64,000 nt of DNA, taken from NCBI GenBank assembly GCA_963828465.1, contig CAWHEU010000018.1, forward strand, positions 64,001-128,000, written 5' to 3'. A program made the translations under genes and the position numbers. The first letter of the stretch is position 1. Every line of letters begins with the position of its first letter. Of the stretch, positions 32,135 through 62,610 are shown one piece after another. The stretch is from an uncultured Acidobacteriota bacterium (GTDB lineage Bacteria > Actinomycetota > Acidimicrobiia > Spongiisociales > ZC4RG35). A model generated the notes under the pieces. That model was not told the DNA's origin. It worked only from the letters and a program-made list of their open reading frames with translations, and did no database searches.

Positions 32135-32211
32135 TGGTGGGCGATACTGGACTTGAACCAGTGACCTCGCGCGTGTGAGGCGCGCGCTCTAGCCAACTGA
32201 GCTAATCGCCC
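32135..32211 (-). tRNA. tRNA-Val(CAC)
   Basis: GGGCGAT/ATCGCCC acceptor stem, CGCGC-CTCACAC-GCGCG anticodon arm, GTTCAAGTCC T-arm, encoded CCA. Confidence 0.97.
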
Positions 32212-38342: not shown

Positions 38343-38420
38343 TGGTGGGCCCTACTGGACTTGAACCAGTGACCTCTTGCGTGTCGAGCAAGCGCTCTAG
38401 CCGGGCTGAGCTAAGGGCCC
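38343..38420 (-). tRNA. tRNA-Val(GAC)
   Basis: GGGCCCT/AGGGCCC acceptor stem, CTTGC-TCGACAC-GCAAG anticodon arm, encoded CCA. Confidence 0.96.
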
Positions 38421-38432
38421 GAGTTCCCTCCT

Positions 38433-38506
38433 TGGAGGCGACGACCGGAATCGAACCGGTGTGACGGGTTTTGCAGACCCGCGCCTAACCACTCGGCCAC
38501 GTCGCC
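38433..38506 (-). tRNA. tRNA-Cys(GCA)
   Basis: GGCGACG/CGTCGCC acceptor stem, CGGGT-CTGCAAA-ACCCG anticodon arm, encoded CCA. Confidence 0.97.
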
Positions 38507-38531
38507 GAGACCGGACGACTCGAGTCGTCGG

Positions 38532-38605
38532 AGCGGAAGACGGGATTCGAACCCGCGACCTCAACCTTGGCAAGGTTGCGCTCTAGCCAACTGAGCTACT
38601 TCCGC
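38532..38605 (-). tRNA. tRNA-Gly(GCC)
   Basis: GCGGAAG/CTTCCGC acceptor stem, CAACC-TTGCCAA-GGTTG anticodon arm; CCA not fully encoded. Confidence 0.97.
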
Positions 38606-52187: not shown

Positions 52188-52867
52188 GACGGGTTCCCTC
52201 CGAGAACAGCGCTGCTCCTGGGGCTCACACTAACTTGCCCCTCCTTTTCGTTACCCAAACTCTCGACGCGGACCAGTACTTCGCTTGCAATTGGGACAAA
52301 CCCACAGGCCAGGAACGAGCGCACGGAGCGTGCGTTCCCCGGCGCTACGGCTGCGAACACGGGTTCTCCATGGGGGGTCATCGTCAGCGCCTGATGGATG
52401 AGGTGACGCCCGCGTGGGCCATCGGGGGAGTTCTCCACACTCATCTCTCGTCGCCCTCCCAACCCAAGACCCAGTGTGAACAAGCCGTCGGGCGAACCGT
52501 AGGCCCGTACTTGCTCCCGTCTGGCTCGGGCGAAAGCCACCCGGGGATGGTGGTCGAGGTCGGGCCTGGGTACCAGGGCTCCGCCACCTCGGCCCTCGGC
52601 GAACATCGTGATATCGATCGAACCGATGCTCCCTCGTGGCCCGGCCATTCGGAGCATGACCTCGGGATGAAGCGCCCTGCCGAGCCCATCGGGAGCGAGG
52701 TCGGACAGGTCATCGGCTCTGAGCCGGCTGGCGATGAAGGCATGTCCCGTGAAGCACACCACCGCCTCCTGACCGTCGCCCAGCTCCGGGAGAAACGTGA
52801 CCCCACCGTCCATCTCGGGGAATCGGCCGGCCGCGGCGTCGCGGAGGATGGTCAGAAGCGGGTGCAC
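52184..52867 (-). CDS. Hypothetical protein with GNAT-like C-terminus
   Basis: FAAVAPGNARSVRSFLACGF; TATCGT-N6-GTG promoter. Confidence 0.75.
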   Translation of the reverse strand: MHPLLTILRDAAAGRFPEMDGGVTFLPELGDGQEAVVCFTGHAFIASRLRADDLSDLAPDGLGRALHPEVMLRMAGPRGSIGSIDITMFAEGRGGGALVPRPDLDHHPRVAFARARREQVRAYGSPDGLFTLGLGLGGRREMSVENSPDGPRGRHLIHQALTMTPHGEPVFAAVAPGNARSVRSFLACGFVPIASEVLVRVESLGNEKEGQVSVSPRSSAVLGGNPS

Positions 52868-52883
52868 GTCTCAACGATATTCA

Positions 52884-54173
52884 CTAGCTCGGCGTCGAGA
52901 ACTGGGCCTGCTCCGTCGAGCCTTCAAGTGCCAGTGTGGATGACTTGCCGCCGGCCACCACCTGGCTCACCAGGTCGAAGTAGCCGGCGCCCACCTCGCG
53001 CTGATGCCGGGTGGCCGTGTACCCGTCGCCTTCCATCGAGAATTCCCGGTTCTGGAGCTCGACATAGGCCGGCATCCCCTCCTCGGCATAGCCACGGGCC
53101 AATTCGAACATCGATGCGTTCAGGGCATGGAACCCGGCCAGGGTGATGAACTGGTAGCGATAACCCATCGTGCCCAACTCCTTCTGGAACCGGCCGATCG
53201 TCGCCTCGTCCAGGTGCTTGGACCAGTTGAACGATGGCGAGCAGTTGTAGGCCAGCATCTTGCCCGGGTACTCGGCATGGATCGCCTCGGCGAAGACCCT
53301 CGCCTCGTCGAGGTCCGGGCGGGCCGTTTCGCACCAGATCAGGTCTGAGTACGGCGCGTAGGACAGACCGCGGGCGATCGCCGATTCGAGACCGCCGGTG
53401 ACCATGTGGAACCCCTCCGGGGTGCGCTCGCCGGTCGCAAAAGCGCGATCTCGCTCGTCGATATCGGATGTGAGGAGGGTGGCGCCATTCGCATCGGTCC
53501 GGGCCACGATCAGGGTTGGCACATCCATCACGTCGGCGGCAAGACGCGCCGCCTGCAGCGTTCGAACGTGTTGCGCCGTCGGCACCAGGACCTTGCCCCC
53601 CATGTGACCGCACTTCTTCTCTGCCGCCAACTGGTCCTCGTAATGGATGCCGGCGGCGCCGGCCTGGATGAATCGCTTGGTGAGCTCGAAGACATTGAGC
53701 GAGCCGCCGAACCCGGCCTCGCCGTCGGCGATGATGGGAACGAACCAGTCGATGTCGGTCTTTCCCTCCGCCCAGTGGATCTGGTCGGCTCGGCGGAGTG
53801 CATTGTTGATCCGCTCCACCAGTGCCGGGGCGGAATTGGAGGGGTACAACGATTGATCGGGATAGACGTCGCCGGCCAGGTTCCCGTCCGCCGCCACCTG
53901 CCATCCGGAGAGGTAGATCGACTTCAGACCGGCCTTCACCATCTGCACCGCTTGTCCACCGCTGAGAGCTCCCAGTGCGCTGACGTAGTCCTCGGTGGTC
54001 AGACGCTCCCAGAGAGCGATGGCCATCCGATTCGCCAGCGTGGACTGCTCCCTTATGCTGCCCCGGAGCCTCACCACGTCTTCAGCGCTGTAGTCCCGGG
54101 TGACGCCCTCCCAGCGAGGGTTGGCCTTCCAGTCGTCGGCCAGACGGCTGGCCTCGTTGGCGACGTGCGACAT
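52884..54173 (-). CDS. aceA: Isocitrate lyase
   Basis: [40 protein letters not shown]; start ATG 54173. Confidence 0.97.
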
Positions 54174-54184
54174 GTCTCTCTCCC

Positions 54185-55744
54185 TCAGTTGATCAACTCG
54201 TAGGCGGGCAATGTCAGGAACTCGACGAAGCTCTCCCCGAGGGCCACGTCTTCGAAGATTTTTTGGGCGACGGGCAGCCGATCCCCATACGGGTTGTCCT
54301 CCCCCTCCAAGCGATCGATCACAGACCCGGCTATCGAGCGCACCCGGGCCTCGGTGATGGGGGCGGCGTCTTCGGTTTCGACGCCGTGTCGCACCCACTG
54401 CCACACCTGCGATCTCGAGATCTCTGCCGTTGCGACGTCTTCCATGAGATTGTCGATTGCGGCGGCACCGGTCCCGGACAGCCACGAGGCGAGATAGCGG
54501 ATGCCCACCGAGACATTCGTCTCCAGGCCAGTGGTCGTCACAGATCCGGGGAACTCGAAGTCGAGCAGGTCGCCCGCCTCCACGGCAACATCGTCGCGCT
54601 GGCGGTCCAGCTGGTTCGGCCGTCCCCCGAGGACGTCGTCGAACTCTTTCATGGCCACAGGTACCAGATCGGGATGGGCCACCCAGGTGCCGTCACAACC
54701 CGCCCCCGCCTCCCGGGCCTTGTCGGCCCTCACGGCAGCGATCGCCTTCTCTGTGACCTCGGCATCGCGCCGATTGGGGATGAAGGCCGCCATGCCGCCG
54801 ATGGCATGCGCACCTCTCCGGTGACACGTCTTGACCATCAGCTCGGTGTAGGCACGCATGAACGGGACTGTCATCGTGACGGAGCCGCGATCGGGCAAGA
54901 TGAACGATGGGTCGTTCCGGAACTTCTTGATCACAGAGAAGATGTAGTCCCAGCGCCCGGCGTTGAGGCCGGCCGCATGCCGGCGCAGCTCGTACAGGAT
55001 CTCGTCCATCTCGAACGCGGCGAGGATCGTCTCGATCAGGACGGTGGCCTTGATGCTGCCCTGCGGGATACCGAGCCGATCCTGGGCCCAGACGAACACG
55101 TCATTCCAGAGTCTCGCCTCGAGATGAGACTCCAGCTTGGGCAGATAGAGATAGGGGCCGGTCCCGGCCTCGATCGCCGCTCGCCCACCATGGAAGAGAT
55201 AGAGGCCGAAGTCGAACAACGAACCGGACATGGGACGCCCGTCGACCAGGAAATGCTTTTCGCCGAGATGCCAGCCACGCGGTCGAACCACCAGGGTCGC
55301 CGTCTTGCTGTCGAGCTCGTAAGTCTTCTCTCCGGTGTCGAGTCTCAACTCGCGCCGATAGGCGTCGACCAGATTGGCCTGGCCTTCGAGGAGGTTGAGC
55401 CAGGTCGGAGAGGTCGCATCCTCGAAGTCGGCCATGAAGACCCGGGCGCCCGAGTTGAGCGCGTTGATCATCATCTTGGCGTCGACCGGGCCGGTGATCT
55501 CGACGCGGCGGTCGGTCAGGTCGGCGGGCACCGGGTCGATCACCCAGTCCGACTCCCTGACATGCCGGGTCTCGCTGAGAAAGGCAGGTTGCTCCCCATC
55601 ATCGAGCCGGCCCTGCCGGGTCTGTCGCTCGGCGAGGAGCTGGCCCCGCTGCCAGCCGAACTCCTGTTCCAGATCGGTGAGAAACGCGACCGCTTCCGGG
55701 TCGAGGACCCGGCGCTCGATCTCGGTATCTCGAAACTGATTCAT
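54185..55744 (-). CDS. aceB: Malate synthase A
   Basis: [49 protein letters not shown]. Confidence 0.97.
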
Positions 55745-57278: not shown

Positions 57279-58760
57279 TCAGCTCGAGGTGTCCTCGATG
57301 AATCCTCTCAGGTGGCCGGCCAGGGCATTCAGCGACTGACGCTGCAGGTACATCATGTGGCCCGCCTCGTAGTACTCGGTCCGGATGTTTTTCCGCAATG
57401 ACTCGTCGAGACCGAGATGGCTGATCGTGTAGTCGGTTGCGAAATGGGGCGTGGCCAGGTCGTAGTACCCGCTGGCCACGAACACTTGCAACCGCTGGGA
57501 TCGGGACATGACATCCCGAAGCTGTTCCGAGGTGTCGACGTAGTGACCCTTGAACTCTTCGTAGTCCCAGGACTCGTTCACCTTCATGCTCAGGGTCTCG
57601 TAGAAGGATTCGTTCTCGAATCCGAGCTCCACCCGCAGGTAGTCGTTCAGCGTCGCCGTGAAAGGCCCGCCGATCTGATCGGAGGCCGGGTCGTTCTCCA
57701 GATTGTCTCCAGCCGCTATCCGGTCGATCCCCGTGAAGCGAGAATCGAGCCGGCCGACGGTTCTTCGCTGGTCTCGCATCAGCTCCTTGCAGAAGCGTTG
57801 GATGTGGATCCGGAGGTTGTATCGATCGATGTAGTCGGCGGAGATCCCGGTGTATGCCGCCAGCTTGGCCATCACTCGTTTTCGTTCGGTGTCTTCGAGC
57901 GCATCGCCGCGGGCCAGGGCTGACCAGTAGGGGCCGATGGTGAACTCCTCCACCTCGTCGAGGAGGTCGCGGAGGTCACGGCGCTGGAGCTTGGATGAGA
58001 GCCGGCCGTGGAACCAGGCAGTGGCGGCGTAGGTGGGCAGGAAGACCATGAAAGGAAGGTCGTTTCCCGGCCGGAAGACGAGCGCATCAGGCTCCTGGCC
58101 GATCGTCTGGAAGTTGAGGGCCGACGAGATGAGGATCAGCCCGTTTAGCTCAGTTCCCTTGTGGGCGAAGAGACTGTGGGCGATCGCCGCCCCTCTGGTA
58201 GTCCCGTAGCTCTCCCCGGCCACATACTTCGGGGAGGCCCACCTCCCATTCCGGTTCAGGTAGGAAACGATGAAGTCGGTGAAGGCGCCGATGTCCTTGG
58301 AGAAGTGGTGGAACTCTTTCTCCTTGTCCTTGGGGGTTGCCGTGGAGAAGCCGGTGCCGATGGCGTCGACGAGGACCACATCCGCCACATCGAGTATCGA
58401 TTGATCGTTGTGGATCAGTCGGCCGGGCACCGAGACCTTGAAGCCGCTCTCGTCGAATTCCACCCGTCGCGGCCCGAGCAGCCCGAGATGGAGCCAGACA
58501 GTGGACGATCCCGGTCCTCCGTTGAAGGCGAACACGATCGGCCGGGATGCCGGGTCGGCTCCGTCCTCGGTGTATGCGACGTGGAAGAAGACCGCCTTCT
58601 TGTCGTCCTCCTGCTCGACGATCTGGGTGGCGGCGGTCGCGGTGTAGGACACCTTGCGGCGGCCAAACTTGCCGGTGTACTGCTTGGAGACGCTTTTCTC
58701 TTCGACCTCGGGAAGGGGTGGCGTGTCCTCTTGGACCTGATTGGTCTGCTCTTCTGCCAT
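57279..58760 (-). CDS. Peptidase S10 serine carboxypeptidase
   Basis: FNGGPGSS, DAIGTGFS, GESYG, GYYDLATP, YEAGHMMY. Confidence 0.93.
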   Translation of the reverse strand: MAEEQTNQVQEDTPPLPEVEEKSVSKQYTGKFGRRKVSYTATAATQIVEQEDDKKAVFFHVAYTEDGADPASRPIVFAFNGGPGSSTVWLHLGLLGPRRVEFDESGFKVSVPGRLIHNDQSILDVADVVLVDAIGTGFSTATPKDKEKEFHHFSKDIGAFTDFIVSYLNRNGRWASPKYVAGESYGTTRGAAIAHSLFAHKGTELNGLILISSALNFQTIGQEPDALVFRPGNDLPFMVFLPTYAATAWFHGRLSSKLQRRDLRDLLDEVEEFTIGPYWSALARGDALEDTERKRVMAKLAAYTGISADYIDRYNLRIHIQRFCKELMRDQRRTVGRLDSRFTGIDRIAAGDNLENDPASDQIGGPFTATLNDYLRVELGFENESFYETLSMKVNESWDYEEFKGHYVDTSEQLRDVMSRSQRLQVFVASGYYDLATPHFATDYTISHLGLDESLRKNIRTEYYEAGHMMYLQRQSLNALAGHLRGFIEDTSS

Positions 58761-58769
58761 GACTCGAAT

Positions 58770-59336
58770 CTAGGGCGTCTTCTCCCGCCCGTCGCGGTCG
58801 ATCCAATCCTCCGGTCCCACTCCGAGGCCCTCGGCGATGCGGTTGATGTAGTTGAAATAGGCGACGACCTGAACACAACTGGAGATCGCCCTGTCGTCGT
58901 AGCCATGCTGCCTCAGCTGGGCGACATCCTCCGCGCTGACCGAGGCGCAATCGTCTGTGAGGCGCTCGGCGAACAAGAGCAGGGCCATCGTGGCATCGTC
59001 GAGGCCGGCGCTCCGCCAATCCTCGGCGAACCGGTCCACCATCTGTTGATCGTCGACCTCATCCCGGAGGTCGTGTAGATGCGCCGCTATTCAGTAGTGG
59101 CACTCGTTCACGTCTGATGTGACTACAGCGATCATCTCCCGCTGGGACCGGGTGAGGGGTGAATCGCCGAACATGATCGTGGAATAGAGGCGCATCGAGT
59201 CCCGCATCACCTCGGGAAGCTGGCTCTGGATCGAGACGATGTTCCAGATCCGACCGGCCCTTCGGGTGGCGGCGTCGTACTCCTTCCTGGTGACACCGGC
59301 CGCCTCGTCGGCGGGTGTCACGTGAACGTGGGGCAT
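58770..59336 (-). CDS. AhpD/carboxymuconolactone-decarboxylase-family peroxidase-related protein, probable selenoprotein (CHYU)
   Basis: ORFs 59091..59336 and 58770..59042 are in frame across TGA 59091-59093: LTRSQREMIAVVTSDVNECHY*IAAHLHDL...VAYFNYINRIAEGLGV. Confidence 0.82.
59054..59073 (-). promoter_or_regulatory. Candidate bacterial SECIS hairpin
   Basis: CGACCUC-CGGGAU-GAGGUCG, starting 17 nt after the in-frame UGA. Confidence 0.6.
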
Positions 59337-59339
59337 GGC

Positions 59340-60596
59340 TCAACCGGCGAGAAACAGCGCCGGTTCCTCCAGATTCTCGATCACCAGGGCCATGAAGCGC
59401 CGACCCTGGGCGCCGTCGATGACCCTGTGGTCGTAGGACAGCGACAACGGCATGACGGGGGCAATCGCCAAATCCCCGTTGCTCACCACGACCTTCTCCT
59501 GGGCGCGGCCCACCGAGAGGATCGCCGTCGTGCCGTAGGGAACGATCGGAGTCCCCTGACCGCCACCCACGGCCCCGATGTTGGAGACCGTGAACGTCTG
59601 GCCGGTCAGCTCGTCGGGGGCGAGTGACCGTTCCCGTGCACCTTCTCCTAGACGCCGGACCTCGGAGGCAATGTCGAGGACCGCGAGGGCCGCGGCGTCG
59701 CGCACTACTGCCACAAGAAGCCCATCGGGTGTGTCGACCGCGATCCCTATGTGATGGGCGCCATGGACGATCAGGTCGTCGCCGTCGAGGGTGGCGTTGA
59801 AGTCGGGAAAGGCCTCGAGGGCCGGTATGACTGCCTTGATGACGAGCGCCTCCATCGGGAGCTTCACCTCGTGACGTGCGCTGAGGGCGGATCGGATCTC
59901 CACGAGCCTCGTCGCATCCACCTCGTCGAAGGTGGTGACATGGGGTATCTCGGCCCAGCTCCTCGCCATGTTGGAGGCAATGGTTCGGCGCAACCGGGAC
60001 AAAGGGCGACGCTCGTCCTCACCGGAATCCTCCAAAGGCGACGCGGTCACTTCCTGCGGCCTCGATTCTTCGGTGGGCGCCACCGACTCGGTTGCCGATG
60101 GAGCGGCCGCCAGCACGTCCTCCCGGGTGACTCTGCCCTCGGGGCCGGACCCGCGCACCTGTCCGAGATCCACCCCCATTTCCCTGGCCAGCTTGCGCAC
60201 AATGGGAAGCGCCTTGACTTCCTTGGTCCCTTCCCCTCCTGCGGTCGGGCCGACCGGGGAGAGCACTTCTGCTTCCTCGCTGAGGGTGCCGACGATGGGC
60301 GGCGCCGTGTGGGTCGCTTCTGGCTCGGATACGGAGTCGTCGGAGGTGGCGACCTCCCCGTCCTCACCGATGACGACAAGCACCGATCCGACCTGAATCG
60401 TCTCCCCCTCGACCCCACCGTGTCGAAGGACTGTGCCGGCATACGGAGAGGGAATCTCGACCACGGCCTTGTCGGTCTCGACCTCGACCACGGGTTGGTC
60501 GGCTTCGACACGCCCCCCCTCGGGGACGAGCCACCGCACGATCTCTGCCTCGGTGAGGCCCTCACCGATGTCAGGCAGGAGGAATTCCCTCGCCAC
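59340..60596 (-). CDS. 2-oxoacid dehydrogenase E2 (dihydrolipoamide acyltransferase)
   Basis: Lipoyl domain EVETDKA, GSGPEGRVTREDV, SYDHRVIDG. Confidence 0.95.
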   Translation of the reverse strand: MAREFLLPDIGEGLTEAEIVRWLVPEGGRVEADQPVVEVETDKAVVEIPSPYAGTVLRHGGVEGETIQVGSVLVVIGEDGEVATSDDSVSEPEATHTAPPIVGTLSEEAEVLSPVGPTAGGEGTKEVKALPIVRKLAREMGVDLGQVRGSGPEGRVTREDVLAAAPSATESVAPTEESRPQEVTASPLEDSGEDERRPLSRLRRTIASNMARSWAEIPHVTTFDEVDATRLVEIRSALSARHEVKLPMEALVIKAVIPALEAFPDFNATLDGDDLIVHGAHHIGIAVDTPDGLLVAVVRDAAALAVLDIASEVRRLGEGARERSLAPDELTGQTFTVSNIGAVGGGQGTPIVPYGTTAILSVGRAQEKVVVSNGDLAIAPVMPLSLSYDHRVIDGAQGRRFMALVIENLEEPALFLAG

Positions 60597-61573
60597 TAGG
60601 CCTCCAGTGTCTCTTGTGCCACCCGCACGATCCGGTCCACAGTCGGAAGGTAATGGCCCTCGGATCGCTTCAGCGGGAAGACGGTGTCCCAGCCCGTCAC
60701 TCGACGCACCGGCGCCGTGAGCGAGTAGAGGGCGCGCTCCTGGACGATTGCGGCCACTTCCGCCCCCATGCCTGCGGTCCGGGGGGCTTCATGGACCACA
60801 ACCACCCTCCCCGTCTTGGTCGCCGAGCGGGCAATGCCATCGGCGTCGATCGGAGAGAGGGTGCGCAGGTCGAGTACCTCCACTGATATCCCGGACTCTT
60901 CGAGACGGGCCGCTGCCGCCCGCGCCTCCTTCATCATCGCCCCCCAGGACACCACAGTGATGTCCTCGCCTTCGCGCTCGACCCGCAGCGGGCCGATCTC
61001 TGTGGTGTAGTACAACTCGGGGACCTCTTCCTTGACCGCCCGGTAGAGGCGGATCGGCTCCAGGAAGAGCACCGGGTCGGGGTCTTCGATGGCGGCCAGG
61101 AGCAAACCTCGAGCGTCGGAAGGAGTCGACGGGACCACCACCTTGAGACCCGGGATGTGGGCGTATATCGCCTCCGTCGACTCGGAATGATGCTCGGCGG
61201 CTCCGATGCCGCCACCGAAGGGGACTCGTATCACCACCGGTGCGGTGAAACGGTGGTTGGAGCGGTTCCGGATACGTGCGACGTGGTTGATGATCTGGTC
61301 GTATGCCGGATACGAGAAACCGAGGAACTGGAGCTCGGCCACAGGACGCATCCCGGCGATGGCCATCCCGAATGCCGCGCCCACTATCCCGGACTCCGCC
61401 ACCGGGGTGTCGAACACCCGGTCCTCCCCGTACTTGTCCCGCAATCCGTCGGTGATCCTGAACACTCCCCCGGTCCGACCGATGTCCTCGCCGAGCAGCA
61501 CCACACGCTCATCGGATTCGAGCGCAGTCGCCAGCGCTCCGTTGAGGGACTGGGCCAAGGTCAGCTCGCTCAA
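60596..61573 (-). CDS. 2-oxoacid dehydrogenase E1 beta subunit
   Basis: GEDIGRTGGVFRITDGL, DTPVAESG, EHHSES, FLEPIRLY. Confidence 0.95.
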   Translation of the reverse strand: MSELTLAQSLNGALATALESDERVVLLGEDIGRTGGVFRITDGLRDKYGEDRVFDTPVAESGIVGAAFGMAIAGMRPVAELQFLGFSYPAYDQIINHVARIRNRSNHRFTAPVVIRVPFGGGIGAAEHHSESTEAIYAHIPGLKVVVPSTPSDARGLLLAAIEDPDPVLFLEPIRLYRAVKEEVPELYYTTEIGPLRVEREGEDITVVSWGAMMKEARAAAARLEESGISVEVLDLRTLSPIDADGIARSATKTGRVVVVHEAPRTAGMGAEVAAIVQERALYSLTAPVRRVTGWDTVFPLKRSEGHYLPTVDRIVRVAQETLEA

Positions 61574-62610
61574 GAGCCGATCTCACCCAGCTGAGTTTCG
61601 ATAGGCGACGTCGGCTGCTCGTACATGCGCAGCAACATCTCCTCGGCGGTCGGCTGGGGCAGCGCCTCCGCCATCGCCACCGCCTCCTCGATCACGTCCG
61701 ATGCTCGGGTCTCGAGTTCTTCCTGCCATTCGGGGGTCCAGCCGCCGGCCCTCTCGAGGAGGAGACGCACCCGCTCGAGGGGATCCTTCTCACGCCACTC
61801 CACGGCCTCGTCCTCGTCGCGGTAGCGGCTCGGATCGTCGGAAGTTGTGTGAGGGCCGAGTCGGTAGGTCACCGCTTCGATGAGGGTCGGCCCCTCACCG
61901 TTTCGCGCCCTGGTGACCGCCCCACTCACGACCTCGAACACCGCGGCGACGTCGTTGCCGTCGACGAGGACGCCAGGCATGCCATATCCCTCCGCCTTCA
62001 TGGCGATCGACTCGGAACGGGTCTGCTCGGCTCGGGGGTAGGAGATGGCGAAGCCGTTGTTCTGGCAGAGGAAGACGGTCGGCGTGCTGAAGACGGCAGC
62101 GAAATTCATCGCCTCGTGGAAATCGCCTTCGGATGTGGCGCCGTCCCCGAACGAGGTCAGTGCAATGCGGTCAGAGCCCCTGAGCGCCTCGGCCCAGGCG
62201 AGCCCTACGGCATGGATCATGTGACCGCCGACGGTTATCGAAGGCGGAAGCACGTTGACCCCATCGGGGGCCTGCCCGCCCCGCTCGTCGCCGGTCCGTC
62301 CCGCCACGAGGAGGCTCCACGGATACCCGGCACGCCACATGAGTGCTGCATCCCGATAGGTGGCCGCTACCCAGTCGTCGGGTCGTAGAGCCGCTGCCGC
62401 CCCGATCTGGGCCGCTTCCTGGCCCTCGAAGGGGGCATAGGTGGCCAGCCGGCCCTGTCGCTGCATGGCCATGCATTTGTGGTCATAGGTGCGGGCCTCG
62501 ACCATGTCGGAATACAGCCGGCGCATCTCCTCGAGGGTGATGGGGAGACGATCGCCAACGGTCCCGTCCGGGCTGATCAGGGTGAGCATGCCGGCGGAGA
62601 GCTTATCCAC
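61570..62610 (-). CDS. 2-oxoacid dehydrogenase E1 alpha subunit (pyruvate or branched-chain)
   Basis: GQEAAQIG, FGDGATSEGDFHEAMN, QNNGFAIS, YRLGPHTTSDDP. Confidence 0.95.
   Translation of the reverse strand: MDKLSAGMLTLISPDGTVGDRLPITLEEMRRLYSDMVEARTYDHKCMAMQRQGRLATYAPFEGQEAAQIGAAAALRPDDWVAATYRDAALMWRAGYPWSLLVAGRTGDERGGQAPDGVNVLPPSITVGGHMIHAVGLAWAEALRGSDRIALTSFGDGATSEGDFHEAMNFAAVFSTPTVFLCQNNGFAISYPRAEQTRSESIAMKAEGYGMPGVLVDGNDVAAVFEVVSGAVTRARNGEGPTLIEAVTYRLGPHTTSDDPSRYRDEDEAVEWREKDPLERVRLLLERAGGWTPEWQEELETRASDVIEEAVAMAEALPQPTAEEMLLRMYEQPTSPIETQLGEIGS

What the first reader, a model, noticed from the sequence alone, without database searches (positions are those of the whole stretch)
58770..59336. 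Hidden selenoprotein: AhpD/CMD-family gene with in-frame UGA at the CxxC position plus a SECIS-like hairpin
Seen: two ORF-track fragments (81 aa and 90 aa) are one reading frame interrupted only by TGA at 59091-59093; the joined 188-aa product reads NEC-H-Y-(UGA)-IAAH. A 7-bp hairpin with a G-rich loop (CGACCUC-CGGGAU-GAGGUCG) begins 17 nt downstream, with possible lower pairing CAUCU/AGAUG. Known: AhpD/CMD proteins use CxxCxxxH, CxxU AhpD-like selenoproteins exist, and bacterial SECIS elements sit immediately 3' of the UGA. Inference: UGA is decoded as Sec; standard annotation would call two genes or a pseudogene.
Basis: partly seen in the sequence, partly recalled or inferred. Interest (0 to 1): 0.82.

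Follow-up and report, generated by a model that had tools for sequence, protein, structure and literature searches.

The report
Known-type AhpD-like selenoprotein gene, confirmed
The two short reading frames are one gene for a small redox enzyme that uses selenocysteine at its active site; the reading is right, but this selenoprotein family has been known since 2005, so the case is ordinary.

Summary

- **The gene.** On the minus strand, 59336..58770 is one 188-codon frame broken only by TGA at 59093..59091. It reads E67-X11-C79-H-Y-U82-X3-H86. It scores above the cut-off for TIGR01926 (peroxidase-related enzyme) and Pfam CMD.
- **The TGA is conserved.** It is kept in 49 of 56 relatives' loci read from whole genomes and in 78 of 80 public genome records from several phyla. 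The rest have Cys (TGC/TGT) at that codon.
- **The hairpin is under selection.**
  - The 7-bp hairpin lies at 59073..59054, 17 nt after the UGA.
  - Among 23 orthologs it holds the only two frozen four- or six-fold codons of the gene.
  - Across 76 distinct sequences, 94.5% of its cells pair and compensatory C-G to U-A changes occur.
- **The Sec machinery is present.** The genome has selA, selB, selD, a tRNA-Sec (UCA) and an FdhA-type selenoprotein gene.
  - Caveat: selB carries a one-base insertion in this assembly. This is probably an assembly error, but I could not check it.
- **Novelty.** CxxU AhpD-like (COG2128) selenoproteins were described in 2005 and are among the most abundant marine selenoprotein families. 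This is a new member of a known kind.
- **The one less ordinary feature.** In Acidimicrobiia the gene sits 3 nt behind the E2 gene of an E1alpha-E1beta-E2 operon.

The parts
58770..59336 (-). AhpD-like / peroxidase-related selenoprotein gene, 188 codons plus a TAG stop. ATG is at 59336..59334. Active-site pattern is E67-X11-C79-x-x-U82-X3-H86.
   Evidence: frame. Pfam CMD 40.9 bits against a cut-off of 23. TIGR01926 141.7 bits against a cut-off of 81.8. PDB 2oyo at 3e-25, with CxxC aligned to CxxU; invariant E67, Y81 and H86.
59091..59093 (-). In-frame UGA read as selenocysteine (residue 82).
   Evidence: TGA at the aligned codon in 49 of 56 loci and 78 of 80 loci; all others are TGC/TGT. No other letter here in contigs of 4 runs.
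59054..59073 (-). SECIS-type hairpin inside the coding sequence (codons H88-D95). 5' arm 59073..59067, loop CGGGAU 59066..59061, 3' arm 59060..59054.
   Evidence: 147 of 147 cells paired in 21 distinct orthologs. 94.5% of 532 cells paired in 76 distinct sequences, against 23-47% for slid partners; pair 24-37 is CG 59, UA 12, UG 5, unpaired 0. The CTC (Leu) and GTC (Val) codons of the stem are the only frozen ones among 40 invariant four- or six-fold columns.
59340..60596 (-). Context: dihydrolipoamide acyltransferase (E2) with a lipoyl domain. Its TGA stop (59342..59340) lies 3 nt before the selenoprotein's ATG, so UGA is an ordinary stop in the neighbouring gene.
   Evidence: Biotin_lipoyl, E3_binding, 2-oxoacid_dh. 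Synteny.
60596..62610 (-). Context: E1 beta (60596..61573) and E1 alpha (61570..62610) of the same 2-oxoacid dehydrogenase operon.
57279..58760 (-). Context: S10-family serine carboxypeptidase-like gene. Its ATG lies 9 nt after the selenoprotein's stop.
   Evidence: Synteny.

Best explanation
This is a genuine selenoprotein gene of the AhpD-like (COG2128 / TIGR01926 'peroxidase-related enzyme') family. The ribosome reads UGA at 59093..59091 as selenocysteine. The hairpin 17 nt downstream (59073..59054) serves as the bacterial SECIS element. It recruits SelB carrying Sec-tRNA(Sec, anticodon UCA), which is made by SelA with selenophosphate from SelD. The product is a 188-residue helical thiol/selenol oxidoreductase. 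Sec82 takes the place of the second Cys of the AhpD motif E-X11-C-x-x-C-X3-H and forms a selenenylsulfide with Cys79 during turnover. Shown here: the conserved UGA, the Sec/Cys alternation, selection on the hairpin, the presence of the machinery, and family membership. Inferred: actual Sec insertion, the redox chemistry, and the substrate (hydroperoxides directly, or an oxidised peroxiredoxin as for mycobacterial AhpD).
For: - **Frame and motif:**
- **Family:** TIGR01926 at 141.7 bits (cut-off 81.8) and CMD at 40.9 bits (cut-off 23). The nearest solved structures are Cys forms with CxxC aligned to CxxU.
- **UGA conservation in close relatives:** all 22 relatives' loci at 61-99% identity have one in-frame TGA, and U aligns in C-x-Y-U in 28 of 28 loci read.
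- **UGA conservation more widely:** 49 TGA against 7 TGC/TGT among 56 loci. 24 of 32 matches in a 401-genome sample of the phylum have TGA. 78 TGA against 2 TGC among the 80 best public records, from Acidimicrobiia, Ca. Actinomarina, Chloroflexota, Planctomycetota, Bryobacterales, Latescibacterota and Gemmatimonadota.
- **Translation continues past the UGA:** the 17 codons between the UGA and the next ATG keep their amino acids while their codons vary. Ala+3 uses 4 codons and Leu+5 uses 5.
- **Hairpin:** synonymous sites are frozen only in the stem (permutation p about 5e-4). 100% of cells pair in orthologs. There is covariation across phyla, and 0 of 500 shuffles reach the observed score. A paralogous subgroup has a different hairpin at the same place, with 2 compensatory pairs.
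- **Machinery:** selA 436 bits, selB 301 bits and selD 390 bits, all above their cut-offs. tRNA-Sec at 72 bits, anticodon UCA.
- **UGA is not reassigned:** the neighbouring E2 gene ends in TGA.
- **Sec decoding is used elsewhere:** an FdhA-type gene with ...CNRTUH... is in the same genome.
- **Independent assemblies:** contigs of three DNA studies and one RNA library keep the TGA.
Against: - **selB is split in this assembly.** It reads in two frames (496 aa plus 134 aa) because of one extra base relative to an intact relative. If real, SelB would lose its C-terminal part (family model positions 464-580), which I recall as its SECIS-binding domain. Two other assemblies of the genus also split selB, at other places. 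One of the two near-identical FdhA copies in this genome is frameshifted as well.
- **Fold energy says nothing.** The single-sequence fold is not significant. Fold energy downstream of the codon does not separate Sec forms (mean -14.9 kcal/mol, n=49) from Cys forms (mean -22.0, n=7).
- **No compensatory change among the 23 close orthologs.** Their stem simply does not vary.
- **No Rfam family matched**.
- **No protein-level evidence of selenium.**
Confidence: 0.93

Rival explanations
1. UGA is recoded, but not to selenocysteine. For example, Cys could be inserted by a tRNA-Sec-like tRNA through SelB, or the codon could be read through as Trp.
For: selB looks frameshifted in this assembly. Public gene calls show W at the site. 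SelB-dependent Cys insertion at UGA has been reported in some Actinobacteria (recalled, not seen here).
Against: selA and selD are intact and above their cut-offs. Their role in making Sec-tRNA and selenophosphate is established knowledge, not tested here. None of the 136 loci read has TGG at the codon; the only alternative is TGC/TGT. The W calls therefore most likely come from gene callers that used a TGA=Trp code (inference). UGA ends the adjacent E2 gene.
Confidence: 0.03
2. The UGA terminates translation. The locus would then be two small genes (81 aa and 90 aa) or a recent pseudogene of a Cys-type AhpD-like gene.
For: This is what table 11 gives. Public sets hold many fragments of about 104-110 aa that cover only the C-terminal half.
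Against: The same TGA is kept from 99% down to about 36% protein identity and in several phyla. Both halves stay conserved. The stretch between the UGA and the next ATG evolves as coding sequence. An 81-residue product would end one residue before the catalytic position and would lack His86.
Confidence: 0.02
3. The TGA is a sequencing or assembly error for TGC/TGT.
For: This assembly seems to carry single-base indels elsewhere.
Against: Those errors are indels, not substitutions. Contigs from three separate DNA studies and one RNA library show no difference at 59091-59093. The 22 relatives' loci at 61-99% identity, from separately assembled genomes, carry the same TGA.
Confidence: 0.01

Closest known systems
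AhpD-like (COG2128) selenoprotein family, called 'AhpD-like 1' in the GOS survey (Zhang, Fomenko & Gladyshev 2005, PMC1088965; Zhang & Gladyshev 2008, PMC2398784; passages read)
   Same: CxxU redox motif, the same COG/CMD fold family, a hairpin with G in a small apical loop right after the UGA, and many Cys homologs. The papers report 27 sequences in the Sargasso Sea and 299 in GOS.
   Different: Nothing essential. This copy comes from a soil Acidimicrobiia genome and lies in a 2-oxoacid dehydrogenase operon. I could not see the papers' supplementary sequence lists or BSepDB entries, so I cannot say whether close orthologs are already listed there.
[quoted passage not shown]
   Same: The spacing E-X11-C-x-x-C/U-X3-H (residue numbers of the Mtb enzyme are recalled), the CMD fold family, and a gene placed directly behind a lipoyl-bearing E2.
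   Different: Sec replaces the second Cys. The protein scores 23.1 bits against the AhpD subfamily model TIGR00777 (cut-off 191.95), so it is not an AhpD proper. No partner peroxiredoxin was identified.
PDB 2oyo, 2pfx, 3c1l, 6k40 and 2prr ('uncharacterized peroxidase-related protein' / AhpD)
   Same: E-values of 3e-25 to 1e-18 over nearly the full length. CxxC aligns with CxxU.
   Different: 2oyo and 2pfx, whose alignments were printed, have Cys at the site. Most of these entries carry no assigned function in their titles.
NCBIfam NF041238 'AhpD_rel_CFYUT alkylhydroperoxidase-related (seleno)protein' and NF053654 'YciW-related (seleno)protein'
   Same: Curated selenoprotein branches of the same superfamily.
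   Different: Scores are far below the cut-offs: 53.4 against 175 and 21.1 against 310. The motif here is C-H-Y-U in a 188-aa single-domain protein.
E. coli fdhF SECIS (recalled)
   Same: A hairpin within the coding sequence just 3' of the UGA, with G in the apical loop, read by SelB.
   Different: Unrelated sequence. No Rfam model matched here.

Membership tests
Bacterial SelB/SECIS-dependent selenoprotein gene | In-frame UGA conserved among orthologs, with coding conservation on both sides | tested here: met
Bacterial SelB/SECIS-dependent selenoprotein gene | Cys at the aligned position in homologs | tested here: met
   7 of 56 loci, 2 of 80 loci, L049 and the genome's own paralog, and database proteins.
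Bacterial SelB/SECIS-dependent selenoprotein gene | Stem-loop immediately 3' of the UGA with G in a small apical loop, under selection | tested here: met
   The loop is CGGGAU, with 24 nt between the UGA and the loop. The numeric limits of the published consensus model are recalled, not read.
Bacterial SelB/SECIS-dependent selenoprotein gene | selA, selB, selC (tRNA-Sec) and selD in the genome | tested here: met
   Caveat: selB is split by a 1-nt insertion in this assembly.
Bacterial SelB/SECIS-dependent selenoprotein gene | Selenium actually incorporated at the UGA | not testable with these tools
   Needs 75Se labelling or mass spectrometry.
TIGR01926 peroxidase-related enzyme / COG2128 | Whole-protein score above the curated cut-off | tested here: met
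   141.7 bits against 81.8.
Pfam CMD (PF02627) | Score above the gathering threshold | tested here: met
   40.9 bits against 23.
AhpD-type active site | E-X11-C-x-x-C-X3-H spacing (motif recalled) | tested here: met
   E67, C79, U82 and H86. E67 and H86 are invariant in 20 aligned sequences. U stands in for the second C.
AhpD proper (TIGR00777) | Score above the cut-off | tested here: not met
   23.1 bits against 191.95.
NF041238 AhpD_rel_CFYUT (seleno)protein | Score above the cut-off | tested here: not met
   53.4 bits against 175.
Rfam SECIS families | Match to a curated covariance model | tested here: not met
   Only chance-level hits to unrelated families.

The most novel reading that the evidence does not exclude
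In this Acidimicrobiia lineage the Sec-containing AhpD-like protein is the fourth cistron of an E1alpha-E1beta-E2 2-oxoacid dehydrogenase operon. Its ATG lies 3 nt after the E2 stop. It may be reduced by the dihydrolipoyl arm of that E2, which would make it a selenium version of the mycobacterial Lpd-DlaT-AhpD relay. That would tie a selenoprotein to lipoamide-dependent peroxide defence. The arrangement is kept in 19 of 23 orthologs from whole genomes and in 16 of 80 public loci. Those include both Cys-form orthologs and all lie among the closer relatives, most of them labelled Acidimicrobiia. It is not kept in other phyla, so shared ancestry alone could explain it.
Probability: 0.2. Interest if true: 0.45.

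Novelty: new member of a known kind. Interest (0 to 1): 0.15.

Why it matters
It matters mainly for annotation. Table-11 gene callers split or truncate this gene. Public protein sets hold C-terminal fragments and calls with W at the Sec site, so the family's selenoproteins are under-counted in soil Acidimicrobiia. The nucleotide motif GACCUCCG-N4-GAGGUC, embedded in the codons for D-L-R-x-E-V, is kept in most of the 76 distinct sequences aligned, across several phyla. It could serve as a simple marker to find and correct these genes. The operon link to a lipoyl-E2 gives a testable idea about the reductant of a family whose function is still unassigned.

Tried and rejected
- **Single-sequence folding.** z = -0.69, so it is not informative.
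- **Fold energy downstream of the codon, Sec against Cys forms.** The Cys forms fold more strongly (-22.0 against -14.9 kcal/mol). Energy is therefore no evidence either way.
- **Lower stem CAUCU/AGAUG.** Only weakly kept, so it is not counted as part of the element.
- **Rfam scan of 58700-59400 at E up to 10.** Five chance hits and no SECIS family.
- **Search for a neighbour conserved across phyla.**
  - I clustered all stop-to-stop ORFs of the 80 public loci and ran Pfam on representatives.
  - Apart from the gene itself, the largest cluster was probably its antisense shadow (inferred from one representative's coordinates).
  - The only cluster spanning several phyla was ABC-transporter ATPases at inconsistent positions.
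  - No shared partner was found.
- **E2/E1/S10 synteny outside the closest relatives.** Not found.
- **Steps not run.**
  - No structure prediction, because the sequence matches to solved Cys forms were already clear.
  - No complex-prediction job, because gene neighbourhood alone does not justify one.
- **Supplementary files were not opened.** The papers' sequence lists may already contain close orthologs.

Full report
**Observation**

The feature lies on the minus strand. The ORF listing gives 59091..59336 (81 aa) and 58770..59042 (90 aa) in one frame. Read with TGA=U, 59336..58770 is a single 188-residue frame with one U at residue 82, in ...SDVNECHYUIAAHLHDLRDEV.... The TGA is at 59093..59091 and the terminal stop is TAG at 58772..58770. 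The hairpin CGACCUC/CGGGAU/GAGGUCG occupies 59073..59054 and starts 17 nt after the UGA.

**Family**

- The protein matches Pfam CMD (40.9 bits, cut-off 23) and NCBIfam TIGR01926 'peroxidase-related enzyme' (141.7 bits, cut-off 81.8).
- It does not reach the cut-offs of AhpD proper (TIGR00777, 23.1 against 191.95). It also misses the two curated '(seleno)protein' branches NF041238 (53.4 against 175) and NF053654 (21.1 against 310).
- The nearest solved structures are Cys-containing 'uncharacterized peroxidase-related proteins' (2oyo 3e-25, 2pfx, 3c1l, 6k40, 2prr). Their CxxC aligns with CxxU.
- E67, C79, U82 and H86 have the spacing E-X11-C-x-x-C-X3-H that I recall as the AhpD active-site signature. 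E67, Y81 and H86 are invariant in an alignment of 20 homologs.

**Is the UGA coding?**

- *Close relatives.* In 40 relatives plus the own genome, all 22 relatives' matches at 61-99% identity carry exactly one in-frame TGA. U aligns in C-(H/V)-Y-U in 28 of 28 loci read.
- *All whole-genome loci.* I fetched 57 loci, and one was truncated before the site. Of the other 56, 49 have TGA at the aligned codon and 7 have TGC/TGT.
  - Seven of the 49 come from genomes flagged unpublished (G018, G038, G088, G212 twice, G264, G305).
  - Without them the count is 42 against 7.
- *Phylum sample.* In an even sample of 401 genomes, 27 genomes had a match at E <= 1e-20, and 24 of the 32 matches carry TGA.
- *Public records.* Of the 80 best public genome records, 78 have TGA and 2 have TGC.
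  - Depositors label them Acidimicrobiia, Ca. Actinomarina, Chloroflexota/Anaerolineae, Planctomycetota, Bryobacterales, Latescibacterota, Gemmatimonadota and others.
- *Close Cys orthologs exist.* L093 and L145 (63-66% identity) and several database proteins read S-T-R-Y-C or A-C-R-Y-C. More distant ones read C-L-Y-C.
- *The stretch after the UGA is translated.* The codons between the UGA and the next ATG keep their amino acids while their codons vary. Ala+3 has four codons and Leu+5 has five. This excludes a two-gene or pseudogene reading.
- *UGA is not reassigned.* The E2 gene 3 nt upstream ends in TGA.

**The hairpin**

On one sequence the hairpin is not better than chance: z = -0.69. Fold energy downstream of the codon does not separate Sec forms from Cys forms; the Cys forms fold more strongly. 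The evidence is comparative.

- *Close orthologs.* In 23 orthologs (21 distinct rows), 147 of 147 stem cells pair. The only change is C to U, which keeps a G-U pair.
- *Frozen codons.* The 176 aligned codons contain 40 columns with an invariant amino acid of four- or six-fold degeneracy.
  - Only two of these never change codon: Leu+8 (CTC) and Val+12 (GTC). Both are in the stem.
  - A degeneracy-matched permutation gives p of about 5e-4.
  - The set includes one unpublished genome, L038.
- *Wider set.* Across 79 sequences (76 distinct) from the public records, 94.5% of 532 cells pair, against 23-47% when the partners are slid.
  - Pair 24-37 is C-G in 59, U-A in 12, U-G in 5 and unpaired in none.
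  - Pair 25-36 has one U-A.
  - 0 of 500 shuffles reach the observed covariation score.
- *Amino-acid cost.* Several of the compensatory changes also change an amino acid (Val to Ile or Thr). This shows selection on the RNA.
- *A paralogous subgroup.* These loci have 36-42% identity and the motif HHRRGLRR. They carry a different hairpin (CCGGCGC/GGUCU/GCGCCGG) at the same place, with two compensatory pairs. One of its 11 rows is from an unpublished genome.
- *Loop and spacing.* The loop begins C-G-G/U and has an invariant G. [quoted passage not shown]
- *Rfam.* No Rfam family matches.

**Machinery**

- The genome (3.07 Mb, 29 contigs, 92% complete) has selA (436 bits), selB (301 bits) and selD (390 bits), all above their cut-offs.
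- It has one tRNA-Sec with anticodon UCA: Rfam 72 bits against 47, and ARAGORN calls it tRNA-SeC.
- An FdhA-type molybdopterin enzyme with ...CNRTUHAPS... is also present, so Sec decoding is used elsewhere in this genome.

One caveat stands. selB reads as a 496-aa ORF plus a 134-aa ORF in another frame. The cause is one extra base relative to an intact relative.

- Two other assemblies of the genus split selB at different places, while two have it whole.
- The second FdhA copy in this genome is frameshifted relative to the first.
- I therefore take this as assembly indel noise.

**Independent sequence support**

Contigs from three soil DNA studies and one metatranscriptome were laid on 58700-59400.

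- X1 record 2 has 0 differences.
- X5 record 12 and X15 record 5 cross the codon, and all their listed differences lie elsewhere.
- No other letter is listed at 59091-59093. Nineteen less-supported differences were not shown.
- For X1, for X15 and for X5 record 12, the listed differences account for every difference reported.
- An RNA-library contig across the site does not prove transcription.

**Context**

The gene is flanked on the same strand by E1alpha, E1beta and E2 of a 2-oxoacid dehydrogenase upstream. The E2 stop lies 3 nt before the ATG. An S10-type carboxypeptidase lies downstream, with its ATG 9 nt after the stop.

- E2 lies upstream in 19 of 23 orthologs from whole genomes. Of the other four, two have too little upstream sequence.
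- E2 also lies upstream in 16 of the 80 public loci. These are among the closer relatives (most labelled Acidimicrobiia by their depositors) and include both Cys-form orthologs.
- It was not found in the other loci, which include every record labelled as another phylum except three labelled Acidobacteria by their depositors. No other neighbour is shared across phyla.
- In M. tuberculosis, electrons flow NADH -> Lpd -> DlaT (E2) -> AhpD -> AhpC (PMC12028322, passages read).
- The placement behind a lipoyl-E2 is therefore suggestive. It is confined to one lineage and may reflect ancestry only.

**Comparison with what is known**

- AhpD-like (COG2128) proteins with a CxxU motif were reported as a new selenoprotein family in the Sargasso Sea data, with 27 sequences and a SECIS drawn in the paper's Figure 3 (PMC1088965).
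- 'AhpD-like 1' is listed fourth by number of selenoproteins in the GOS table of prokaryotic families, with 299 selenoproteins and 902 Cys homologs (PMC2398784).
- The family appears in a 2006 genome survey (PMC1794560) and in the 2026 database BSepDB (PMC13326102).
- I read passages of all four papers. I did not see their supplements or the database entries, and these may already list close orthologs.
- Other papers in the search listing were not opened.
- Public protein collections contain C-terminal fragments. Of the 19 database proteins I aligned, 11 carry W at the site. I infer that these are TGA=Trp gene calls, because none of the 136 DNA loci read has TGG.

**Verdict**

This is a real selenoprotein gene with a well-supported SECIS element, correctly read by the first stage. 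It is a new member of a long-known family and is ordinary for a specialist.

Noticed in passing
L001 about 2846-2985 (G000:C9 near 52,750-52,890; outside the window): selB of this genome is split into a 496-aa ORF and a 134-aa ORF by one extra base relative to the intact selB of G017. G012 and G006 also split selB, at other places. This is probably assembly indel error, but it would matter for Sec decoding if real.
   Followed up: partly
G000:C16:7045-8298 and G000:C26:2016-3268 (outside the window): Two near-identical FdhA-type molybdopterin oxidoreductase genes have an in-frame TGA in ...SCNRTUHAPSVAG.... The C26 copy changes frame midway. This could be a duplicate from strain mixing or assembly error (contamination estimate 4.8%).
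   Followed up: partly
L093, L145 and proteins P0005-P0014: The Cys-form orthologs closest to the Sec forms read S-T-(R/Q)-Y-C. Where Sec is replaced by Cys, the first Cys of the motif is replaced by Thr (CxxU against TxxC). This suggests a change from a two-residue to a one-residue mechanism.
   Followed up: no
L059 (genome G088, flagged unpublished): The codon just before the TGA is TAG where the other loci have Tyr (motif C-H-stop-U). This could be a pseudogene or an error.
   Followed up: no
L072 (G166:C75): A distant homolog (31% identity) keeps the TGA but lacks the first Cys (G-G-A-P-U).
   Followed up: no
Proteins P0003, P0004, P0016-P0054: 11 of 19 aligned public proteins carry W at the Sec position. 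These are apparently gene calls made with a TGA=Trp code on metagenome contigs. They are a systematic source of wrong residues for this family.
   Followed up: partly
window 52884-55744, minus strand: Isocitrate lyase (52884..54485) and malate synthase (54185..55744) ORFs lie together downstream of the operon: the glyoxylate shunt. The listed ICL ORF overlaps the malate synthase ORF by about 300 nt, so its true start is probably later.
   Followed up: no
window 38343-38605, minus strand: A cluster of tRNA-Val(GAC), tRNA-Cys(GCA) and tRNA-Gly(GCC). A separate tRNA-Val(CAC) lies at 32135-32211.
   Followed up: no
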